Origin: Pseudomonadota bacterium
GTDB lineage: Bacteria > Pseudomonadota > Gammaproteobacteria > Eutrophobiales > Eutrophobiaceae
DNA length: 64,000 bases
Reading direction: 5' to 3'
Assembly (NCBI GenBank): GCA_038142205.1
Contig: JAYQJO010000001.1
Span: forward strand, 2,176,430-2,240,429
Shown here: positions 11,712 to 15,480 of the stretch, piece by piece
How positions within the stretch are numbered: the stretch's first letter is position 1
Layout: each line of letters begins with the position of its first letter
Notes under the pieces: generated by a model
The model's database searches: none
Seen by the model: the letters and a program-made list of their open reading frames with translations, nothing else
Told to the model about the DNA's origin: nothing
Position numbers and translations under genes: made by a program

Positions 11712-12383
11712 GTGAATCGTGAACACCGATCGAATCTGATTTCAAAATTGTCAGACGTAATTAACGACGATCGTATAGAACGGCTGCAAGAAGTATTAAA
11801 TCAACGTACCCGTTATCTCACCGTTGTACTCGATGATATCTATCAACCACAAAACTCCAGCGCGGTTATTCGCACTTGTGAATGTATTGGCATACAGGAC
11901 TTGCACATCATAGAAGACAGAAACGCGCATAAAACAAGCCGAGATGTTGTTAAAGGCTCATCAAAATGGATAAGCCTGAATCATCATGATAAGAACCGGA
12001 TTGATTGCATAAAAAAACTAAGAGATAACGATTACAACATCGTTGCAATGACATTAAGCGAAGACAGTATTCCACTTGAGTCTTTACCCATAAATGAAAA
12101 GCTCGCACTCTGTTTCGGTTGTGAGGAAACAGGACTCGACAAAGAAATTGAAGAAAGCGCTGACTATAAAGTACAAATCCCCATACATGGATTTACTCAA
12201 AGCTATAATATTTCCGTCAGTGCCGGCATCAGTCTTTATTACTTATACAATAAAATAAAAACAACAGAACAAAGCTGGCAGCTTAGTAATGCAGAAAAGG
12301 AAGAATTGCTTATTGACTGGCTGAGTAAATCAACACCGACCGGACAGTTCTTACTTGATAAATACAAAGAAGAAATACCTTAA
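11712..12383 (+). CDS. trmH: SpoU/TrmH-family tRNA (guanosine-2'-O)-methyltransferase
   Basis: 223 aa with SPOUT motifs (LTVVLDDIYQPQNSSAVIRTCECIG...). Its stop TAA at 12381-12383 overlaps the end of attC-like site 3. Confidence 0.7.
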   Translation: MNREHRSNLISKLSDVINDDRIERLQEVLNQRTRYLTVVLDDIYQPQNSSAVIRTCECIGIQDLHIIEDRNAHKTSRDVVKGSSKWISLNHHDKNRIDCIKKLRDNDYNIVAMTLSEDSIPLESLPINEKLALCFGCEETGLDKEIEESADYKVQIPIHGFTQSYNISVSAGISLYYLYNKIKTTEQSWQLSNAEKEELLIDWLSKSTPTGQFLLDKYKEEIP

Positions 12384-12440
12384 CGTTTTAACTCAGGGGC
12401 GCGCCGACTAGGCGCGTCGCTTTGGAGTGACTTGTTATGT
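12378..12440 (-). repeat. attC-like recombination site 3 (3' end of cassette 3)
   Basis: Minus-strand reading: R''-like ACATAAC (plus 12434-12440), a central imperfect palindrome GGCGCGCC-GACTA-GGCGCG(T)C, and R'-like GTTAAGG (plus 12378-12384). The plus-strand ends TAACG / CTTGTTATGT are shared with sites 1 and 2. Confidence 0.55.
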
Positions 12441-12782
12441 TGCATTTTCATGCGTTCATTCCCAGCATACCGCAATAGAACCAACCAACAATAGCAACGA
12501 ATGTAATTCCTTTGCCCCATATATAATTTCGCTTTTTCAAACCAAACGTAATTAACCCTATTAAAAGGATAAGAACTGCGACATAAATCAATTTGAACGT
12601 AAGACTATTTACAGGCTCAGTTAATACAGATATAGGGCCGATTATTGCTCCTAGTATAAAAACCCATATTCCTAATGGGTCTGCATCAAACATTGCTAAA
12701 AGTAACATCCCAATTACAAGGGCAAGCATGAGTAATCCCATAAATGTAATGAATGATGTATTTAATTTATCCTGCAACATAA
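12384..12782 (-). mobile_element. Integron gene cassette 3 (about 399 bp)
   Basis: Bounded by the G|TT crossover points of attC sites 2 and 3. It contains one small minus-strand ORF. Confidence 0.5.
12448..12780 (-). CDS. Small 3-TM membrane protein (cassette ORF)
   Basis: 110-aa hydrophobic ORF. Its ATG lies inside the GTTATGT core at the cassette boundary. The stop TGA is 7 nt before the R'' box of attC site 3. No recognisable RBS, so the call is low-confidence. Confidence 0.35.
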   Translation of the reverse strand: MLQDKLNTSFITFMGLLMLALVIGMLLLAMFDADPLGIWVFILGAIIGPISVLTEPVNSLTFKLIYVAVLILLIGLITFGLKKRNYIWGKGITFVAIVGWFYCGMLGMNA

Positions 12783-12831
12783 CGCCTAGCGAACCGGCGG
12801 CGAAGCCGTCGGGTTACGCGCCTTGTTAGAT
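12777..12831 (-). repeat. attC-like recombination site 2 (3' end of cassette 2)
   Basis: Minus-strand R'' ATCTAAC (perfect RYYYAAC; plus 12825-12831) begins 5 nt after the TGA stop of the TIR-like ORF. Internal imperfect palindrome GCGAACCGGCGGC / GCCGTCGGGTTACGC carries 2 extra bases on one arm. R' is GTTATGT (plus 12777-12783). Confidence 0.6.
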
Positions 12832-14012
12832 GTGATTCAGAGTGCAAGTTTCTTCATTTCATTGATGGCTTCAAGTAATCTAATCGTTGCATCGCCGTCT
12901 AAAGTTTCTCCTTGGTACCTTACTTCAAAAAGCCCTTGCAGATTGGATGGTAGCTTAACCCCGTCTTTTACCAACAAAATAAATCTCTTTCCGTAAAGAC
13001 CCATAGCCGCCCCAATTTCTATTAAAACGTTTGGATTAAGCATAACTACTTCATTAGCATCTGAATCTAAGAGTTTTCGTTCATCCTCAACATGTATTAT
13101 TGCGGCGCCACAATCCCTCATGTCCGACATGACTTTTTCTGGTACTGGCTTTGACACCGATTGTTTTTCTACAGATACAACTGGCTCTAACTCACCAAAT
13201 GCAAGTAATTTTTTAATAGGTTCTACGAACTGCTTGTTTTTCCCATGGGTAATAAATACTTTTTTCTTTCGCAGCTCATTTTCCTGCGTGCTTTCGTCAA
13301 CGCGTGAGGAGGCGGCTTGGCTTGAGGAGGAAGACTGATTTACGACGCCTGAATCTTCTTGTTGATCCAGCTCATCATTTTCAAATTCTGCTTCATCTTC
13401 CTCATAGTCATCTTCTTCGGCTGCAGTGGGGATCGCCTTAAGATCAACGTACTGTTTATCTTTAATCTTTTTTAGTAGGCCCAGCCCTTCGGCTCCTTCC
13501 TGGATTAACTTGAACGTCTTTAACGTTCTATCTCGAGGAACATTCATTTCAGCCAGTACGTTAGAGGCAATGTTTTCTTTTGGAAAAGGTGACCCGTCAT
13601 ACTTCCTTAAAAACTCACCGATAATTCTTGGTTTCAACATTGCTTCTTTTTTAGCAATCAAATCATCCCCTTCAATAGTTGGAGTGACAATTCTTTTGCC
13701 TAGTTCTGAAATTTCAATTTCCGCTGAATTATAGCTCCCTGATGTCAGCCCATACGCCGCTGACGCGCCACACAGCATACGGAAGGGACCGGAAGTGGGT
13801 TGCACATCAAGAGCAGCGGCAACATTAAGGGGGCTGGAGGGGTTTGATCCATAGTTATCAGCGATAGCGTTAATAATTTTTAAAGCCTGATCAATTGACA
13901 TGCTTGGTACATCACTTTGCTTTAATGCGACTTTACGCTTCTTGGGTGTCGCTTTTCCTTTCTCAGCTATTTATTTCCCCTAAATTTAAATTTTGCGATT
14001 TTTTACATCTAA
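12783..14012 (-). mobile_element. Integron gene cassette 2 (about 1230 bp) carrying the TIR-like gene
   Basis: Starts with TTAGAT, which is complementary to the R'' box ATCTAAC of its own attC (site 2). This is the expected cassette-circle relationship. Confidence 0.55.
12837..13901 (-). CDS. TIR-like (COG4271 / CAP12-PycTIR-like) domain protein with an uncharacterised N-terminal domain
   Basis: 354 aa. The C-terminal about 130 aa (KKVFITHGKNKQFVEPIKKLL ... NPNVLIEIGAAMGLYGKRFILLVKDGVKLPSNLQGLFEV) fit the conserved pattern of 'predicted nucleotide-binding protein containing TIR-like domain'. The N-terminal about 160 aa match nothing I recognise. An acidic/Ser-rich linker (EEDDYEEDEAEFENDELDQQEDSG...SSSSSQ) lies between them. 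Confidence 0.7.
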   Translation of the reverse strand: MSIDQALKIINAIADNYGSNPSSPLNVAAALDVQPTSGPFRMLCGASAAYGLTSGSYNSAEIEISELGKRIVTPTIEGDDLIAKKEAMLKPRIIGEFLRKYDGSPFPKENIASNVLAEMNVPRDRTLKTFKLIQEGAEGLGLLKKIKDKQYVDLKAIPTAAEEDDYEEDEAEFENDELDQQEDSGVVNQSSSSSQAASSRVDESTQENELRKKKVFITHGKNKQFVEPIKKLLAFGELEPVVSVEKQSVSKPVPEKVMSDMRDCGAAIIHVEDERKLLDSDANEVVMLNPNVLIEIGAAMGLYGKRFILLVKDGVKLPSNLQGLFEVRYQGETLDGDATIRLLEAINEMKKLAL

Positions 14013-14065
14013 CGCCTAAAGCATGGGCGCAGCTTTGCTGCGTCCAATGCCTTTACTTGTTATGG
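14007..14065 (-). repeat. attC-like recombination site 1 (3' end of cassette 1)
   Basis: Minus strand: R''-like CCATAAC (plus 14059-14065), palindrome GCTGCGCCCATGCTTTAGGC / GCTGCGTCCAATGCCTTTAC with extra bases on one arm, and a perfect R' GTTAGAT (plus 14007-14013). The stop codon of the upstream ORF (14053-14055) lies inside the site. Confidence 0.6.
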
Positions 14066-14721
14066 CTTTTGACCTCTTGTATTGATACCTTAGCCATATT
14101 TGTTAGCCAATTTGTTTCGTGTAGGACCATTAAGTAATTTTTTCCATTATGGTTAAACGGCCACTGTGTACCCGGCTTAACATCTTTCAAATGATCACCG
14201 CCTTTACCTGGCAGCGTAACTTGAACATCTGCAGTGTAGTTTGGATTAAAACTGTTAACCCCAAGTGATGCAGTAGTTAAAGGATCAAAGAAAGCACCGC
14301 CTTTCTCTATTTTTGCACCATTGTAATAGGGTTTATCTAGGGGGTTAGATTCAACAGATGATGCAGCCTTTTGGCTTGCTTCTTTCATCAAGCTTGCGTT
14401 TGTCGCTTCTAGCTCTTTGACTTTGCTTTCAAGGTGCGGGATAGTTTTTGGCGTATTTACTAGCCAGCTATGTAGTTTATTATTTTCTAGGGTTAAGTGC
14501 GATATGCGACTTTCAAGGACTTCTACTTTGGCTTTGTATTGCCCTGTCTGAGCTTTTAGATTCTCAACTTCAGCTTTATGTACGTTGAGTTTATTCTCAT
14601 CGAATACGAAAGCAAATGCAGCCCAAGTGATACCTGACACTAAAAACGTATGACCCAATATTGATCTAATTGGGTGATCCTCAAACCAGTTACTCAATCT
14701 TTATTCTCCTTTAGGCCATAA
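14013..14721 (-). mobile_element. Integron gene cassette 1 (about 709 bp), first cassette next to attI
   Basis: Begins TTATGG right after the G of the attI-side GTTATGG core (plus 14716-14722). Its own attC R'' CCATAAC is exactly complementary to that start. A short 5' leader carries the SD AAGGAG. Confidence 0.55.
14053..14697 (-). CDS. Membrane-anchored coiled-coil protein of unknown function (cassette ORF)
   Basis: 214 aa. TTG start preceded by the strong SD AAAGGAGAATAAAGA. N-terminal TM helix (ILGHTFLVSGITWAAFAFVF), a heptad-rich coiled coil of about 70 aa (KAEVENLKAQTGQYKAKVEVLESRISHLTLENNKLH...), and a C-terminal Gly/Asn-rich globular domain of about 100 aa. Confidence 0.55.
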   Translation of the reverse strand: MSNWFEDHPIRSILGHTFLVSGITWAAFAFVFDENKLNVHKAEVENLKAQTGQYKAKVEVLESRISHLTLENNKLHSWLVNTPKTIPHLESKVKELEATNASLMKEASQKAASSVESNPLDKPYYNGAKIEKGGAFFDPLTTASLGVNSFNPNYTADVQVTLPGKGGDHLKDVKPGTQWPFNHNGKNYLMVLHETNWLTNMAKVSIQEVKSHNK

Positions 14722-15005
14722 CTATATTTTAACGGACACTTTGTCCGATATACTGCTATAGATTTTGAAAGTGGACTTCATGAAAACCCTCCTTGTTTCA
14801 ATAAGATATGTGATAGATTAATTATAGTAGCTCTATATCTATAGTGTCCACTTTGCTGTTTTTCATATCTAAATTGAGTATGCCCCTATATTTAAAATAT
14901 CCTCTTAAATGAGGATTTATTTATGATTTATCAATAACATATAATATTTACAGAATTATTCATATCGGACACTTTTTTACTTATAAACCCAAGGAGCGGG
15001 TATTT
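14716..15005. promoter_or_regulatory. Putative attI site and divergent promoter region (leftward Pc-like, rightward intI)
   Basis: The GTTATGG core abuts cassette 1. There are four copies of a GGAC(A)CTTT / GTGGACAC motif (14745, 14775, 14852-14865, 14966). On the minus strand, TGGACA-N18-TATAAT (about 14822-14862) points toward the cassettes. An AAGGAG SD precedes the intI ATG. Confidence 0.4.
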
Positions 15006-15404
15006 ATGCAAACTAAGCGACCTCCAAAGTTACTAGATCAGGTAAGGCAGCAAATTCATTTCCTACATTATTCTAGACAAACAGAAAAAGCATATGTGCA
15101 TTGGGTTCGTCGTTATATTTTATTTCATAATAAACGTCATCCCAAAGACATGGCTGGAGAAGAGTTAGCCCGCTTTTTAAATTATTTAGTGAATAAAGAA
15201 AACGTTTCAGCTTCTACACAAAATCAAGCATTAACTGCAATCATATTTTTGTATAAACAGATCCTAAATATTGATGTTGGAGAAATTCCTGAGTTTCAAT
15301 ACGCACGTAAACCCAAACGCCTTCTGGTTGTATTAAATCAAAATGAAGTTAAACGTGTGTTTGAATTTTTAAATGAACCACATAAAACCATGGTCACTTG
15401 TTAA
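15006..15404 (+). pseudogene. intI: Integron integrase IntI, N-terminal 132-aa fragment (3' truncated)
   Basis: LDQVRQQIHFLHYSRQTEKAYVHWVRRYILFHNKRHPKDMAGEELARFLNYLVNKENVSASTQNQALTAIIFLYKQIL...RLLVVLNQNEVKRVF is near-collinear with the IntI1 N-terminus ([37 protein letters not shown]...). It stops at aa 132 of an expected ~320. The catalytic RHRY region is absent, and djlA follows convergently. Confidence 0.8.
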
Positions 15405-15480
15405 AAGGACGGTGTTAAATCTCCTTTGAATAACCTTTAATTTTAAAAAAATCGTTATATAAATTATTGGCGACTAAACA

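What the first reader, a model, noticed from the sequence alone, without database searches (positions are those of the whole stretch)
12837..13901. Integron cassette encoding a TIR-like (COG4271 / CAP12-PycTIR-type) domain fused to an unrecognised N-terminal domain: candidate anti-phage effector
The C-terminal about 130 aa show the hallmark pattern of the 'predicted nucleotide-binding protein containing TIR-like domain' family: the block VFITHGKNKQFVEPIKKLL, then NVLIEIGAAMGLYGKRFILLVKDGVKLPSNLQGL. This fold is used as an NAD-degrading or signalling effector in Thoeris, CBASS and Pycsar. The N-terminal about 160 aa (MSIDQALKIINAIADNYGSNPSSPLNVAAALDVQPTSGPFRMLCGASAAYGL...) match nothing I recognise. 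A highly acidic/Ser-rich linker connects them. The gene is a single-ORF mobile cassette with its own leader of about 110 nt, the context where integron arrays store stand-alone defence genes. A sensor-plus-TIR-like single-protein system of this composition would be new.
Basis: partly seen in the sequence, partly recalled or inferred. Interest (0 to 1): 0.85.

Follow-up and report, generated by a model that had tools for sequence, protein, structure and literature searches.

The report
DNA-binding TIR-like protein on integron cassette
The gene is real and sits on a mobile integron cassette, but it belongs to a widespread, untested protein family that joins a predicted DNA-binding module to a TIR-type NAD-cleaving domain, most likely as a one-protein anti-phage suicide switch, and this copy has lost its normal start codon.

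Summary
The 354-aa ORF (12837..13901, minus strand) exists. Its C-terminal half is a bona fide CAP12/PycTIR-type TIR domain: Pfam PF10137 at E=3e-18, a TIR fold in the AlphaFold model, and an invariant Glu in NVLIEIG. It lies in a true integron cassette bounded by attC sites, next to a truncated intI.

- The architecture is not new. More than 4,500 database proteins matched the query, and the 120 best-scoring listed cover 98-100% of it. Relatives occur in 454 species across more than 12 phyla at 51-63% identity.
- The N-terminal domain has no Pfam match but folds confidently as a tandem winged helix. It resembles the dsDNA-binding BREX protein BrxA and the FokI recognition domain.
- About 69 nt of the supposed 110-nt leader are conserved coding sequence. 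The ancestral ATG is ATA here.

No partner gene is conserved. Elsewhere the same N-domain is fused to PD-T4-6-like kinases or sits just upstream of HEPN or nuclease genes, so it behaves as a swappable sensor.

Best reading: a stand-alone DNA-sensing TIR NADase acting by abortive infection. This is inferred and untested. I rate it a new variant of a known kind, of moderate interest.

The parts
12837..13901 (-). Annotated ORF, 354 aa, counted from the first ATG. It contains the tandem winged-helix N-domain, the acidic linker and the TIR-like C-domain.
   Evidence: ORF. (a 100% identical database protein, P0001). (the same locus on at least 5 metagenome contigs).
13902..13970 (-). 23 in-frame codons upstream of the ATG (IAEKGKATPKKRKVALKQSDVPS). 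They correspond to the conserved basic tail plus SQxDVP motif of the family. The ancestral start is ATA here (13968-13970).
   Evidence: translation, with an in-frame TAA just upstream. (tail conserved in homologues; Q18, D20, V21 and P22 invariant or nearly so). (the relative has ATG). (dN/dS 0.057 over these codons). (ATA in all five contigs).
13976..13981 (-). Shine-Dalgarno-like AGGGGA, 5 nt upstream of the ATA/ancestral ATG.
   Evidence: It is conserved in the closest relative's cassette.
13437..13901 (-). N-terminal tandem winged-helix domain (aa 1-155 of the annotated ORF; residues 24-178 of the full-length model).
13272..13436 (-). Disordered, strongly acidic Ser-rich linker (about aa 156-210).
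   Evidence: pLDDT below 50. (net charge -18 here; negative in 57 of 57 homologues; length about 50 aa is conserved, the sequence is not). (dN/dS 0.15 against 0.02-0.03 in the domains).
12912..13262 (-). TIR-like domain, the Pfam PF10137 match (aa 214-330). The folded domain runs on to the stop codon.
   Evidence: E=3.3e-18. (PADLOC PDC-S35, CBASS TIR effector and PycTIR models). (PycTIR 8jsj). (Foldseek top hits are the TIR domains of TIR-STING and SARM1).
13017..13019 (-). Codon for Glu295 in NVLIEIG, the predicted catalytic glutamate at the start of helix alpha-C.
   Evidence: Invariant in 40 and in 57 homologues. It aligns with NVHLEFG of PycTIR. It falls in the Cap12 profile region 75-128, where MkeTIR-SAVED has its catalytic E84 (bioRxiv 10.1101/2022.05.04.490601).
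12777..12831 (-). attC of this cassette (R'' ATCTAAC ... R' GTTATGT), starting 6 nt after the stop codon.
   Evidence: The R'' and R' boxes are conserved in the relative's cassette.
14007..14064 (-). attC of the preceding cassette. Its R' box GTTAGAT (14013-14007) marks the 5' boundary of this cassette.
   Evidence: imperfect hairpin, z = -2.4 and -3.5.. (the boundary GTTAGATG is identical in the relative although the upstream cassette differs).
15006..15404 (+). Remnant of the integron integrase gene intI (132 aa; only positions 1-121 of the 315-position model), divergent from the cassette array.
   Evidence: PF13495, E=5e-29. (TIGR02249 integron integrase, E=5e-38, score below the full-length cut-off). 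(the next gene starts 77 nt later).
14821..14850 (-). Promoter-like site TGGACA-18-TATAAT (11 of 12 matches) in the attI region, reading into the array. It is a candidate cassette promoter.
   Evidence: This is a consensus match only; the number of sites in the region is not above the shuffled expectation.

Best explanation
The cassette encodes one member of a widespread, horizontally mobile family of stand-alone proteins. Each has four parts: a short basic tail with an SQxDVP motif, a tandem winged-helix module of the BrxA/FokI-recognition type, an acidic disordered linker of about 50 aa, and a CAP12/PycTIR-type TIR domain with the catalytic glutamate intact.

Proposed mechanism:
1. The N-terminal module recognises nucleic acid, most likely invading or abnormal double-stranded DNA.
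2. In the resting state the effector is kept apart or masked, possibly by the acidic linker acting as a DNA mimic on the basic N-terminal part.
3. Binding of several copies side by side on the ligand brings the TIR domains together.
4. This forms the composite active sites that TIR NADases need.
5. NAD+ is hydrolysed and the infected cell stops growing, which is abortive infection.

Shown here: the domain identities, the fold, conservation of the Glu, the cassette structure, the absence of a partner gene, and the modular reuse of the N-domain with other defence-type effectors. Inferred: DNA as the ligand, oligomerisation, NADase activity and any anti-phage phenotype.

In this particular genome the copy sits in a dead integron and starts with ATA instead of ATG. 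It is probably expressed weakly or as an N-terminally truncated protein.
For: Effector domain:
- PF10137 at E=3.3e-18, and PADLOC TIR effector, PycTIR and PDC-S35 models.
- The AlphaFold model's best PDB matches are the TIR domains of TIR-STING and SARM1.
- Glu295 is invariant in 57 homologues and aligns with the PycTIR/Cap12 catalytic region.

Sensor domain:
- The fold is predicted with high confidence (pLDDT 91, pTM 0.83).
- BrxA binds dsDNA and is structurally related to the FokI/BpuJI/SspB recognition modules (PMC9240713, PMC12839542).
- 13 basic positions are conserved in the domain, plus one in the N-terminal tail.

Stand-alone gene:
- No neighbour is conserved in 80 loci from different species. 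The most frequent cluster occurs in 6 of 80 and consists of tyrosine recombinases.

Mobility and accessory nature:
- 51-63% identity across Pseudomonadota, Acidobacteriota, Planctomycetota, Verrucomicrobiota, Chloroflexota, CPR bacteria and one archaeal MAG.
- An attC lies directly downstream in at least 10 of 79 species.
- The same cassette occurs in a different array.
- Immediate neighbours include resolvases and integrases, plus ThsB, SoFic, AbiTii, PD-T4-6, AriA, MADS and GmrSD-like genes.

Modular sensor:
- The N-domain profile finds 2,412 cluster representatives.
- Some are fusions to PD-T4-6-like Ser/Thr kinases.
- Others are 250-280-aa forms placed directly upstream of HEPN/Ymh, pP_pnuc_1 nuclease or unknown small genes.

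Selection and mechanism:
- Purifying selection is strong: dN/dS 0.02-0.03 in both domains.
- TIR NADases are generally switched on by ligand-driven oligomerisation.
Against: - There is no experimental evidence for any member, and I found no paper on the family.
- The defence-island signal is only a rough count of PADLOC hits among 109 immediate neighbours, with no formal background. Many neighbours are housekeeping genes.
- About 60% identity across phyla is unusually high for a defence sensor, which usually diversifies. This could mean the ligand is a conserved cellular structure rather than a phage feature.
- The full-length model gives no defined arrangement between the domains (pTM 0.48).
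- In the window the ATG is lost and the internal ATG has no Shine-Dalgarno sequence, so this copy may be non-functional.
Confidence: 0.5

Rival explanations
1. The protein is DNA-directed but does not deplete NAD+. The winged-helix module places the TIR-like domain on DNA. There it cleaves an N-glycosidic or phosphodiester bond of the nucleic acid itself, acting like a glycosylase, a nucleoside-2-deoxyribosyltransferase or a nuclease, for example on modified phage DNA.
For: - A recognition module joined to a catalytic module is the FokI logic, and FokI and N.BspD6I are among the whole-domain structural matches.
- Anantharaman et al. 2013 proposed that flavodoxin-fold nucleoside 2-deoxyribosyltransferase and TIR domains fused to Abi N-terminal domains act on DNA (PMC3710099).
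- Integron cassettes are rich in compact glycosylases aimed at modified phage DNA (bioRxiv 10.1101/2025.10.29.685425).
- Very high sequence conservation would fit a chemically fixed target.
Against: - Every characterised PF10137 relative (Cap12/TIR-SAVED, PycTIR, PucTIR) is an NADase.
- The best structural matches of the C-domain are NADase TIR domains.
- The long flexible linker does not suggest precise placement of the catalytic domain on bound DNA.
Confidence: 0.15
2. The protein has a cellular role rather than a defence role. It would be a one-component regulator in which the winged-helix part binds an operator and the TIR-like, flavodoxin-fold part binds a nucleotide or metabolite.
For: - The N-domain also matches MarR-type regulators over one winged helix.
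- The C-domain has a flavodoxin-like fold, as receiver domains do (one search also lists Ras and flavodoxin folds).
- Many neighbours are housekeeping genes.
- Conservation is high.
Against: - There is no conserved neighbouring target gene or operon.
- The distribution is patchy: 454 of 185,579 species, crossing phyla at about 60% identity.
- The gene occurs as a promoterless integron cassette.
- The catalytic Glu is invariant.
- The same N-domain is joined to kinase, HEPN and nuclease effectors.
Confidence: 0.1
3. Whatever the family does, the copy in this window is a decaying remnant. The start codon is lost, the integrase is deleted, and the gene is silent or makes a crippled protein lacking the conserved tail.
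For: - ATA stands where the closest relative has ATG.
- No Shine-Dalgarno sequence precedes the internal ATG.
- The SQxDVP tail is nearly invariant in the family and is kept in the kinase and HEPN-partner forms.
- intI is reduced to 121 of 315 model positions.
- The ATA state is fixed in all five metagenome contigs.
Against: - The remaining 354 codons, and the 23 upstream ones, are intact.
- The 23 upstream codons show dN/dS 0.057 against the relative.
- ATA is an allowed, though weak, initiator in translation table 11, and low expression could be tolerated or even favoured for a toxic effector. This is inference.
- The Shine-Dalgarno sequence is retained at the right spacing.
Confidence: 0.35

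Closest known systems
CBASS Cap12 (TIR-SAVED) and Pycsar PycTIR / PucTIR effectors (Pfam PF10137 TIR domain)
   Same: They share the TIR sub-family (PF10137 above threshold; PycTIR 8jsj is the best PDB sequence match). The glutamate motif is conserved. The expected chemistry is NAD+ hydrolysis after oligomerisation.
   Different: Those effectors are second-messenger receptors with a SAVED or cNMP-binding domain, and they need an adjacent cyclase. Here the partner domain is a tandem winged helix, no cyclase or any other conserved neighbour exists, and the NCBIfam Cap12 equivalog score is 13.7 against a cut-off of 450.
PADLOC candidate single-gene system PDC-S35
   Same: It is the best PADLOC match (E=1e-15). 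It is also a stand-alone protein with the same kind of TIR-like C-terminal domain.
   Different: The match covers only profile positions 90-252 of 264. The first 90 or so positions of PDC-S35 do not match, and the 180-aa winged-helix N-domain of this family is absent from the model. PDC-S35 is itself an unvalidated candidate, and no paper mentions it.
BrxA (BREX) and the FokI / N.BspD6I recognition domains: bipartite (winged) helix-turn-helix DNA-recognition modules
   Different: There is no detectable sequence similarity (9-14% identity in the superpositions, no DUF1819 or other Pfam hit). BrxA is a separate subunit of a six-gene system, and FokI carries a nuclease. Here the module is fused to a TIR domain through an acidic linker and has an extra conserved basic tail.
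SPARTA and other short-pAgo systems (nucleic-acid sensor coupled to TIR, HEPN or nuclease effectors)
   Same: The logic is the same: a nucleic-acid-recognition module triggers oligomerisation of a TIR NADase. The alternative partners of this N-domain (HEPN matching PADLOC Aga_HEPN and PD-Lambda-3_B; nuclease matching PF18165 pP_pnuc_1 and Aga_Nuclease) are effector types also used by short pAgos.
   Different: There is no Argonaute, APAZ or guide nucleic acid, and the sensor is a small winged-helix module. The analogy is functional and is inferred, not tested.
PD-T4-6 (single-gene Ser/Thr-kinase defence) and 'AbiJ-NTD1'-type modular Abi proteins
   Same: The same N-domain is fused to kinases that match PD-T4-6 models at E=1e-54. 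The partner set (kinase, HEPN/Ymh, flavodoxin-fold glycosidase-like domain) is the set reported for AbiJ-NTD1 (PMC3710099).
   Different: Canonical PD-T4-6 models do not include this N-domain. Identity with AbiJ-NTD1 could not be tested because no sequence or alignment was available, and neither Pfam nor PADLOC gave an AbiJ hit.

Membership tests
Pfam PF10137 (CAP12/Pycsar-type TIR domain, STIR clan) | Match to the family HMM above the curated gathering score | tested here: met
   66.2 bits against a cut-off of 24.7, E=3.3e-18, profile positions 1-118 of 119.
Pfam PF10137 (CAP12/Pycsar-type TIR domain, STIR clan) | TIR (flavodoxin-like beta-alpha) fold | tested here: met
   In the AlphaFold model the C-domain blocks have mostly pLDDT 80-95, with two lower blocks at 66 and 74. 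The Foldseek top PDB hits are the TIR domains of SfSTING (7un8) and TIR-STING (9lmq), with SARM1 further down.
Pfam PF10137 (CAP12/Pycsar-type TIR domain, STIR clan) | Catalytic glutamate at the start of helix alpha-C | tested here: met
   Glu295 is invariant in 57 sequences. It aligns to NVHLEFG of PycTIR and to the Cap12 profile region containing E84 of MkeTIR-SAVED. The equivalence rests on alignment, not on a superposed active site.
Pfam PF10137 (CAP12/Pycsar-type TIR domain, STIR clan) | NAD+ glycohydrolase activity | not testable with these tools
   Needs an enzyme assay.
CBASS (Cap12 effector) / Pycsar (PycTIR effector) systems | Second-messenger sensing domain (SAVED or cNMP-binding) in the effector | tested here: not met
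   No such Pfam hit. The non-TIR part is a tandem winged helix.
CBASS (Cap12 effector) / Pycsar (PycTIR effector) systems | Adjacent CD-NTase or pyrimidine/purine cyclase gene | tested here: not met
   In the window the flanks are unrelated one-gene cassettes. No neighbour is conserved in 80 loci. NCBIfam Cap12 scores 13.7 against a cut-off of 450.
Thoeris (ThsB TIR plus ThsA effector) | Partner effector gene next to the TIR gene | tested here: not met
   No conserved neighbour. A ThsB-like gene is an immediate neighbour in just one of the loci scanned, as a separate gene.
PADLOC PDC-S35 candidate | Full-length match to the model | tested here: not met
   Only profile positions about 90-252 of 264 align, to aa 189-348. 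The N-terminal part of the model and the N-terminal 180 aa of the protein are unmatched.
Integron gene cassette | A 3' attC site with R''/R' boxes, an imperfect inverted repeat and extrahelical bases, and a 5' boundary at the GTT of the preceding attC | tested here: met
   Sites at 12777-12831 and 14007-14064. A third attC lies at 12378-12440. All three share R'' xxTAACAAG.
Integron gene cassette | The same cassette found in another array context (mobility as a unit) | tested here: met
   Locus L086 has an identical 5' boundary GTTAGATG, a homologous leader and R''/R' boxes, but a different upstream gene and a different attC interior.
Integron gene cassette | Functional integron integrase adjacent to the array | tested here: not met
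   Only positions 1-121 of 315 of TIGR02249 remain. The score is 131 against a cut-off of 265.
BrxA / FokI-type bipartite wHTH DNA-recognition module | Two juxtaposed (winged) HTH subdomains superposable as a unit | tested here: met
BrxA / FokI-type bipartite wHTH DNA-recognition module | Sequence-family membership (DUF1819/BrxA) | tested here: not met
   No Pfam hit at E<=1 for the N-domain. A PDB profile search gave nothing significant for this region.
BrxA / FokI-type bipartite wHTH DNA-recognition module | Binds double-stranded DNA | not testable with these tools
   Needs EMSA or a structure. The only support here is 14 conserved basic positions (13 in the domain, one in the N-terminal tail) and a basic tail.
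AbiJ-NTD1 (Anantharaman et al. 2013) | Sequence similarity to the AbiJ-NTD1 alignment | not tested
Only the partner repertoire matches.

The most novel reading that the evidence does not exclude
The tandem winged-helix module with its basic SQxDVP tail is a previously undescribed, widely shared nucleic-acid sensor of prokaryotic immunity. It would directly recognise invading or modified DNA and switch on whichever effector it is joined to: a TIR NADase in this family, a PD-T4-6-like kinase, or separately encoded HEPN or pAgo-type nucleases. The acidic linker would act as an in-built DNA-mimic safety catch. This TIR fusion would then be a messenger-free, partner-free DNA-activated TIR system spread across more than a dozen phyla, partly by integrons.
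Probability: 0.35. Interest if true: 0.65.

Novelty: new variant of a known kind. Interest (0 to 1): 0.5.

Why it matters
If the inference holds, this family is a very compact, one-protein route from DNA recognition to NAD+ depletion. It would need no second messenger, no Argonaute and no STAND ATPase.

Its sensor module would also explain how several other candidate systems are triggered: the PD-T4-6-like kinase fusions and the PDC-M34-like pairs with HEPN or nuclease genes.

It would add a cassette-sized TIR system to the defence genes known to travel in integrons. The near-60% identity across phyla makes it an easy family to test once and generalise from.

For this window itself the value is lower. 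The copy has a mutated start codon and sits in an integron without an integrase.

Tried and rejected
- Conserved partner gene: I clustered 700 neighbours from 80 loci. Nothing recurred beyond tyrosine recombinases in 6 loci, so a multi-gene system was rejected.
- Membership in CBASS, Pycsar or Thoeris was rejected: no sensing domain, no cyclase and no ThsA.
- A word-index search with the N-domain alone returned only truncated or frameshifted copies of the same family.
- A second profile search with the non-TIR forms again returned mostly TIR fusions, and no AbiJ, HKD or REase fusions.
- Structural search of viral proteins (BFVD) with the N-domain found nothing at E<=0.001.
- The AlphaFold-database library afdb50 was not available.
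- A PDB sequence-profile search found only PycTIR for the C-domain and nothing credible for the N-domain.
- Two home-made attC detectors were too strict: each missed two of the three sites in the window. The '10 of 79' figure is therefore a lower bound, not a rate.
- Literature searches for PDC-S35, COG4271, PF10137, TIR in integron cassettes, and winged-helix TIR NADases found no description of this family.
- The AbiJ-NTD1 alignment is not in the held supplement.
- The promoter scan of the region as a whole is not above chance; only one strong site stands out.
Full report
**What is at the coordinates**

An identical protein is already in public collections. The same locus occurs on at least five independent metagenome contigs, one of them part of a 2.66-Mb assembly. 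The feature is real.

**C-terminal domain**

- Residues 214-330 match Pfam PF10137 (CAP12/Pycsar-type TIR) at E=3.3e-18, well above the curated threshold.
- PADLOC models for the candidate system PDC-S35, for CBASS TIR effectors and for PycTIR also match, but only over this half of the protein.
- A profile of 57 homologues finds PycTIR (8jsj) as its only credible solved relative, aligned across the NVLIEIG motif.
- An AlphaFold model built on that alignment (mean pLDDT 83) gives a beta-alpha TIR fold. Its best PDB matches are the TIR domains of bacterial TIR-STING, with SARM1 further down the list.
- Glu295 is invariant in all 57 homologues. It falls in the part of the Cap12 profile where MkeTIR-SAVED has its catalytic E84.

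**N-terminal domain**

- It has no Pfam match even at E<=1.
- It folds with very high confidence: pLDDT 91 and pTM 0.83 for the domain alone.
- BrxA has two helix-turn-helix motifs and binds dsDNA (PMC9240713). This module class is known to recur in FokI/BpuJI, SspB and all BREX types (PMC12839542).
- The domain is therefore a tandem winged-helix module of a DNA-recognition type. The fold is common, but the sequence family is not described.

**True 5' end of the gene**

- All homologues carry about 23 more N-terminal residues: a lysine/arginine-rich tail followed by a nearly invariant SQxDVP motif.
- In the window the same frame is open upstream of the annotated ATG and encodes IAEKGKATPKKRKVALKQSDVPS. 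It begins at an ATA that follows an in-frame TAA and an AGGGGA Shine-Dalgarno sequence.
- The closest relative (90% identical protein, locus L086) has the same cassette boundary GTTAGATG, the same leader and the same Shine-Dalgarno sequence, but ATG at that position.
- Between the two copies these 23 codons show 8.5 synonymous against 3.5 non-synonymous differences (dN/dS 0.057). This is the same regime as the rest of the gene, which is 0.05 overall and 0.02-0.03 in the two domains.
- All five metagenome copies have ATA.
- The '110-nt leader' is thus about 41 nt of leader plus 69 nt of coding sequence whose start codon has mutated. The internal ATG has no Shine-Dalgarno sequence.
- This copy is either translated inefficiently from ATA or makes a protein lacking a conserved element.

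**Integron context**

The gene is the second of three one-gene cassettes on the minus strand. Each cassette ends in an attC-type site with R'' xxTAACAAG, R' GTTAxxx and an imperfect hairpin with bulged bases. The sites lie at 14007-14064, 12777-12831 and 12378-12440.

Divergent from the array lies a 132-aa fragment that matches positions 1-121 of the 315-position integron-integrase model TIGR02249 at E=5e-38. The rest of that gene is gone, because the next gene starts 77 nt later. The array is wedged between djlA and a SpoU-type methyltransferase.

In L086 the upstream cassette and the interior of the attC differ while the boundaries are conserved. This shows the unit has moved as a cassette. 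It is a genuine cassette in a now inactive integron.

**How common is the architecture**

- The full-length search returned 4,545 significant proteins. The best 120 cover 98-100% of the query, and apart from the identical copy and two close relatives they are 57-64% identical.
- A scan of one genome per species found 454 species with a relative.
- The best 80 come from Pseudomonadota, Acidobacteriota, Planctomycetota, Verrucomicrobiota, Bacteroidota, Chlorobiota, Chloroflexota, Nitrospinota, Gemmatimonadota, Deinococcota, Armatimonadota, Patescibacteria/Saccharibacteria and one archaeal MAG. All are 51-63% identical over the full length.
- The composition is therefore not new. Sources label these proteins 'TIR domain-containing protein' or 'nucleotide-binding protein'.
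- I found no paper that describes or tests the family.
- A systematic survey of bacterial TIR systems explicitly set aside stand-alone TIR proteins.

**Genomic company**

- Clustering 700 neighbouring ORFs from 80 loci gave no recurrent partner. The largest cluster, tyrosine recombinases, occurs in 6 loci at varying positions.
- The immediate neighbours are a mixture of housekeeping genes, mobile-element genes (resolvase, rve integrase, S24 peptidase) and genes matching defence models.
- The defence-model hits are ThsB, SoFic, AbiTii, PD-T4-6, AriA, MADS components, NsnA, GmrSD and AbiEii-type ATPases.
- A clear attC lies directly after the stop codon in at least 10 of 79 species. This is a lower bound, because my detectors missed known sites.
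- The picture is of a stand-alone, horizontally mobile accessory gene that often, but not always, lies in variable or defence-rich regions. I did not compute a formal enrichment.

**The N-domain is modular**

- A profile of the N-domain searched against 1.84 billion cluster representatives found 2,412 hits, 251 of them below 1e-30.
- Most of the 150 best listed are TIR fusions or fragments.
- Three are fusions to a Ser/Thr kinase domain that matches the validated single-gene system PD-T4-6 at up to E=1e-54.
- A further group of 250-280-aa proteins carries the N-domain, the acidic linker and a short C-terminal beta-alpha motif. One of these matches the PADLOC candidate PDC-M34A.
- Three such genes could be examined in context. 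They sit immediately upstream of, or overlap, small genes: a HEPN/Ymh protein (PF09509; PADLOC PD-Lambda-3_B and Aga_HEPN), a pPIWI-associated nuclease (PF18165; Aga_Nuclease) next to a restriction-modification cluster, and an unknown 181-aa protein near CBASS E1/E2 fragments.
- All these forms keep the basic tail and the SQxDVP motif.
- A domain combined with TIR, kinase, HEPN and nuclease effectors behaves like a sensor or targeting module of conflict systems.
- The partner set is the one Anantharaman et al. listed for their 'AbiJ-NTD1' domain (PMC3710099). I could not test whether the two are the same because no sequences were available.

**Family-wide design**

Across 57 homologues:
- The tail is basic, with mean charge +5.5.
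- The folded N-domain is about neutral, with 13 conserved basic positions.
- The linker is always acidic (mean -9.3, negative in 57 of 57) and of nearly constant length (about 50 aa), although its sequence is free. Its dN/dS is 0.15.

**Most likely mechanism**

TIR NADases of this sub-family are inactive until ligand binding drives them into dimers or filaments that create composite active sites. Here the ligand-binding part is a DNA-recognition-type module, and there is no partner gene. My proposal has these steps:
1. The winged-helix module, helped by the basic tail, binds nucleic acid, probably foreign or abnormal dsDNA.
2. Neighbouring molecules on the ligand bring their TIR domains together.
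3. NAD+ is depleted and the cell arrests.

The acidic linker may act as an intramolecular DNA mimic that keeps the protein off DNA, or keeps the TIR domains apart, in the resting state.

Shown: the domains, the fold, the Glu, stand-alone status, mobility and sensor modularity. Inferred: the ligand, assembly, NADase activity and phage protection. I put this reading at about 0.5.

**Rival readings**

- A DNA-directed TIR that attacks the nucleic acid itself (0.15).
- A non-defence one-component regulator (0.1).
- Independently of the family's function, the possibility that this particular copy is a decaying remnant (0.35).

**Verdict**

It is wrong that the composition is new.

The feature is a member of a large, unnamed and untested family. 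It is best described as a new variant of the known theme 'sensor fused to a TIR NADase'. The most interesting product of the follow-up is the winged-helix sensor module shared with kinase, HEPN and nuclease partners. Interest is moderate (0.5).

Noticed in passing
window 15006-15404 (+) and 15405-15480: The integron integrase gene is reduced to its first 132 codons (positions 1-121 of 315 of TIGR02249). The convergent djlA-like gene begins only 77 nt later. The three-cassette array is therefore stranded without a recombinase, between djlA and a SpoU-type methyltransferase.
   Followed up: partly
window 12378-12440: The attC of the last cassette reaches into the convergent SpoU-methyltransferase gene (11712..12383, +). 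The R' box GTTAAGG (12378-12384) overlaps that gene's stop codon.
   Followed up: no
window 14821-14850 (-): A near-consensus sigma-70-like site, TGGACA-18-TATAAT (11 of 12 matches), lies in the attI region and points into the cassette array. It is a candidate cassette promoter, but only a pattern match.
   Followed up: no
window 14053-14697 (-) and 12448-12780 (-): The two flanking cassettes encode orphan proteins. One is 214 aa, with only sub-threshold coiled-coil-type family hits. The other is 110 aa and very hydrophobic, so probably a membrane protein. Neither has a credible Pfam, NCBIfam or PADLOC family.
   Followed up: partly
proteins P0186, P0203, P0232: The same N-terminal winged-helix module, with its SQxDVP tail, is fused to Ser/Thr kinase domains that match the PD-T4-6 defence models at up to E=1e-54. 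This is a sensor-plus-kinase architecture not represented in those models' N-termini.
   Followed up: partly
L088:447-1671, L089:3501-4899, L090:3501-4815: Proteins of 250-280 aa carry the same N-domain plus a short C-terminal beta-alpha motif; one of them hits PADLOC PDC-M34A. They sit directly upstream of small effector-like genes: HEPN/Ymh (PF09509), pP_pnuc_1 nuclease (PF18165, beside a restriction-modification cluster), and an unknown 181-aa gene near CBASS E1/E2 fragments.
   Followed up: partly
alignment A2 (57 homologues); window 13272-13436 for the linker: The inter-domain linker is unconserved in sequence but conserved in length (about 50 aa) and is always acidic (mean net charge -9.3, and -18 in the window). 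The N-terminal tail is always basic. This suggests an electrostatic autoinhibition device.
   Followed up: partly
L091:2340-3471: In one genome the family member is split into an N-domain ORF and a separate 101-aa PF10137 ORF with overlapping ends. This is probably a frameshifted copy. Many database hits of 140-290 aa are similar truncations.
   Followed up: no
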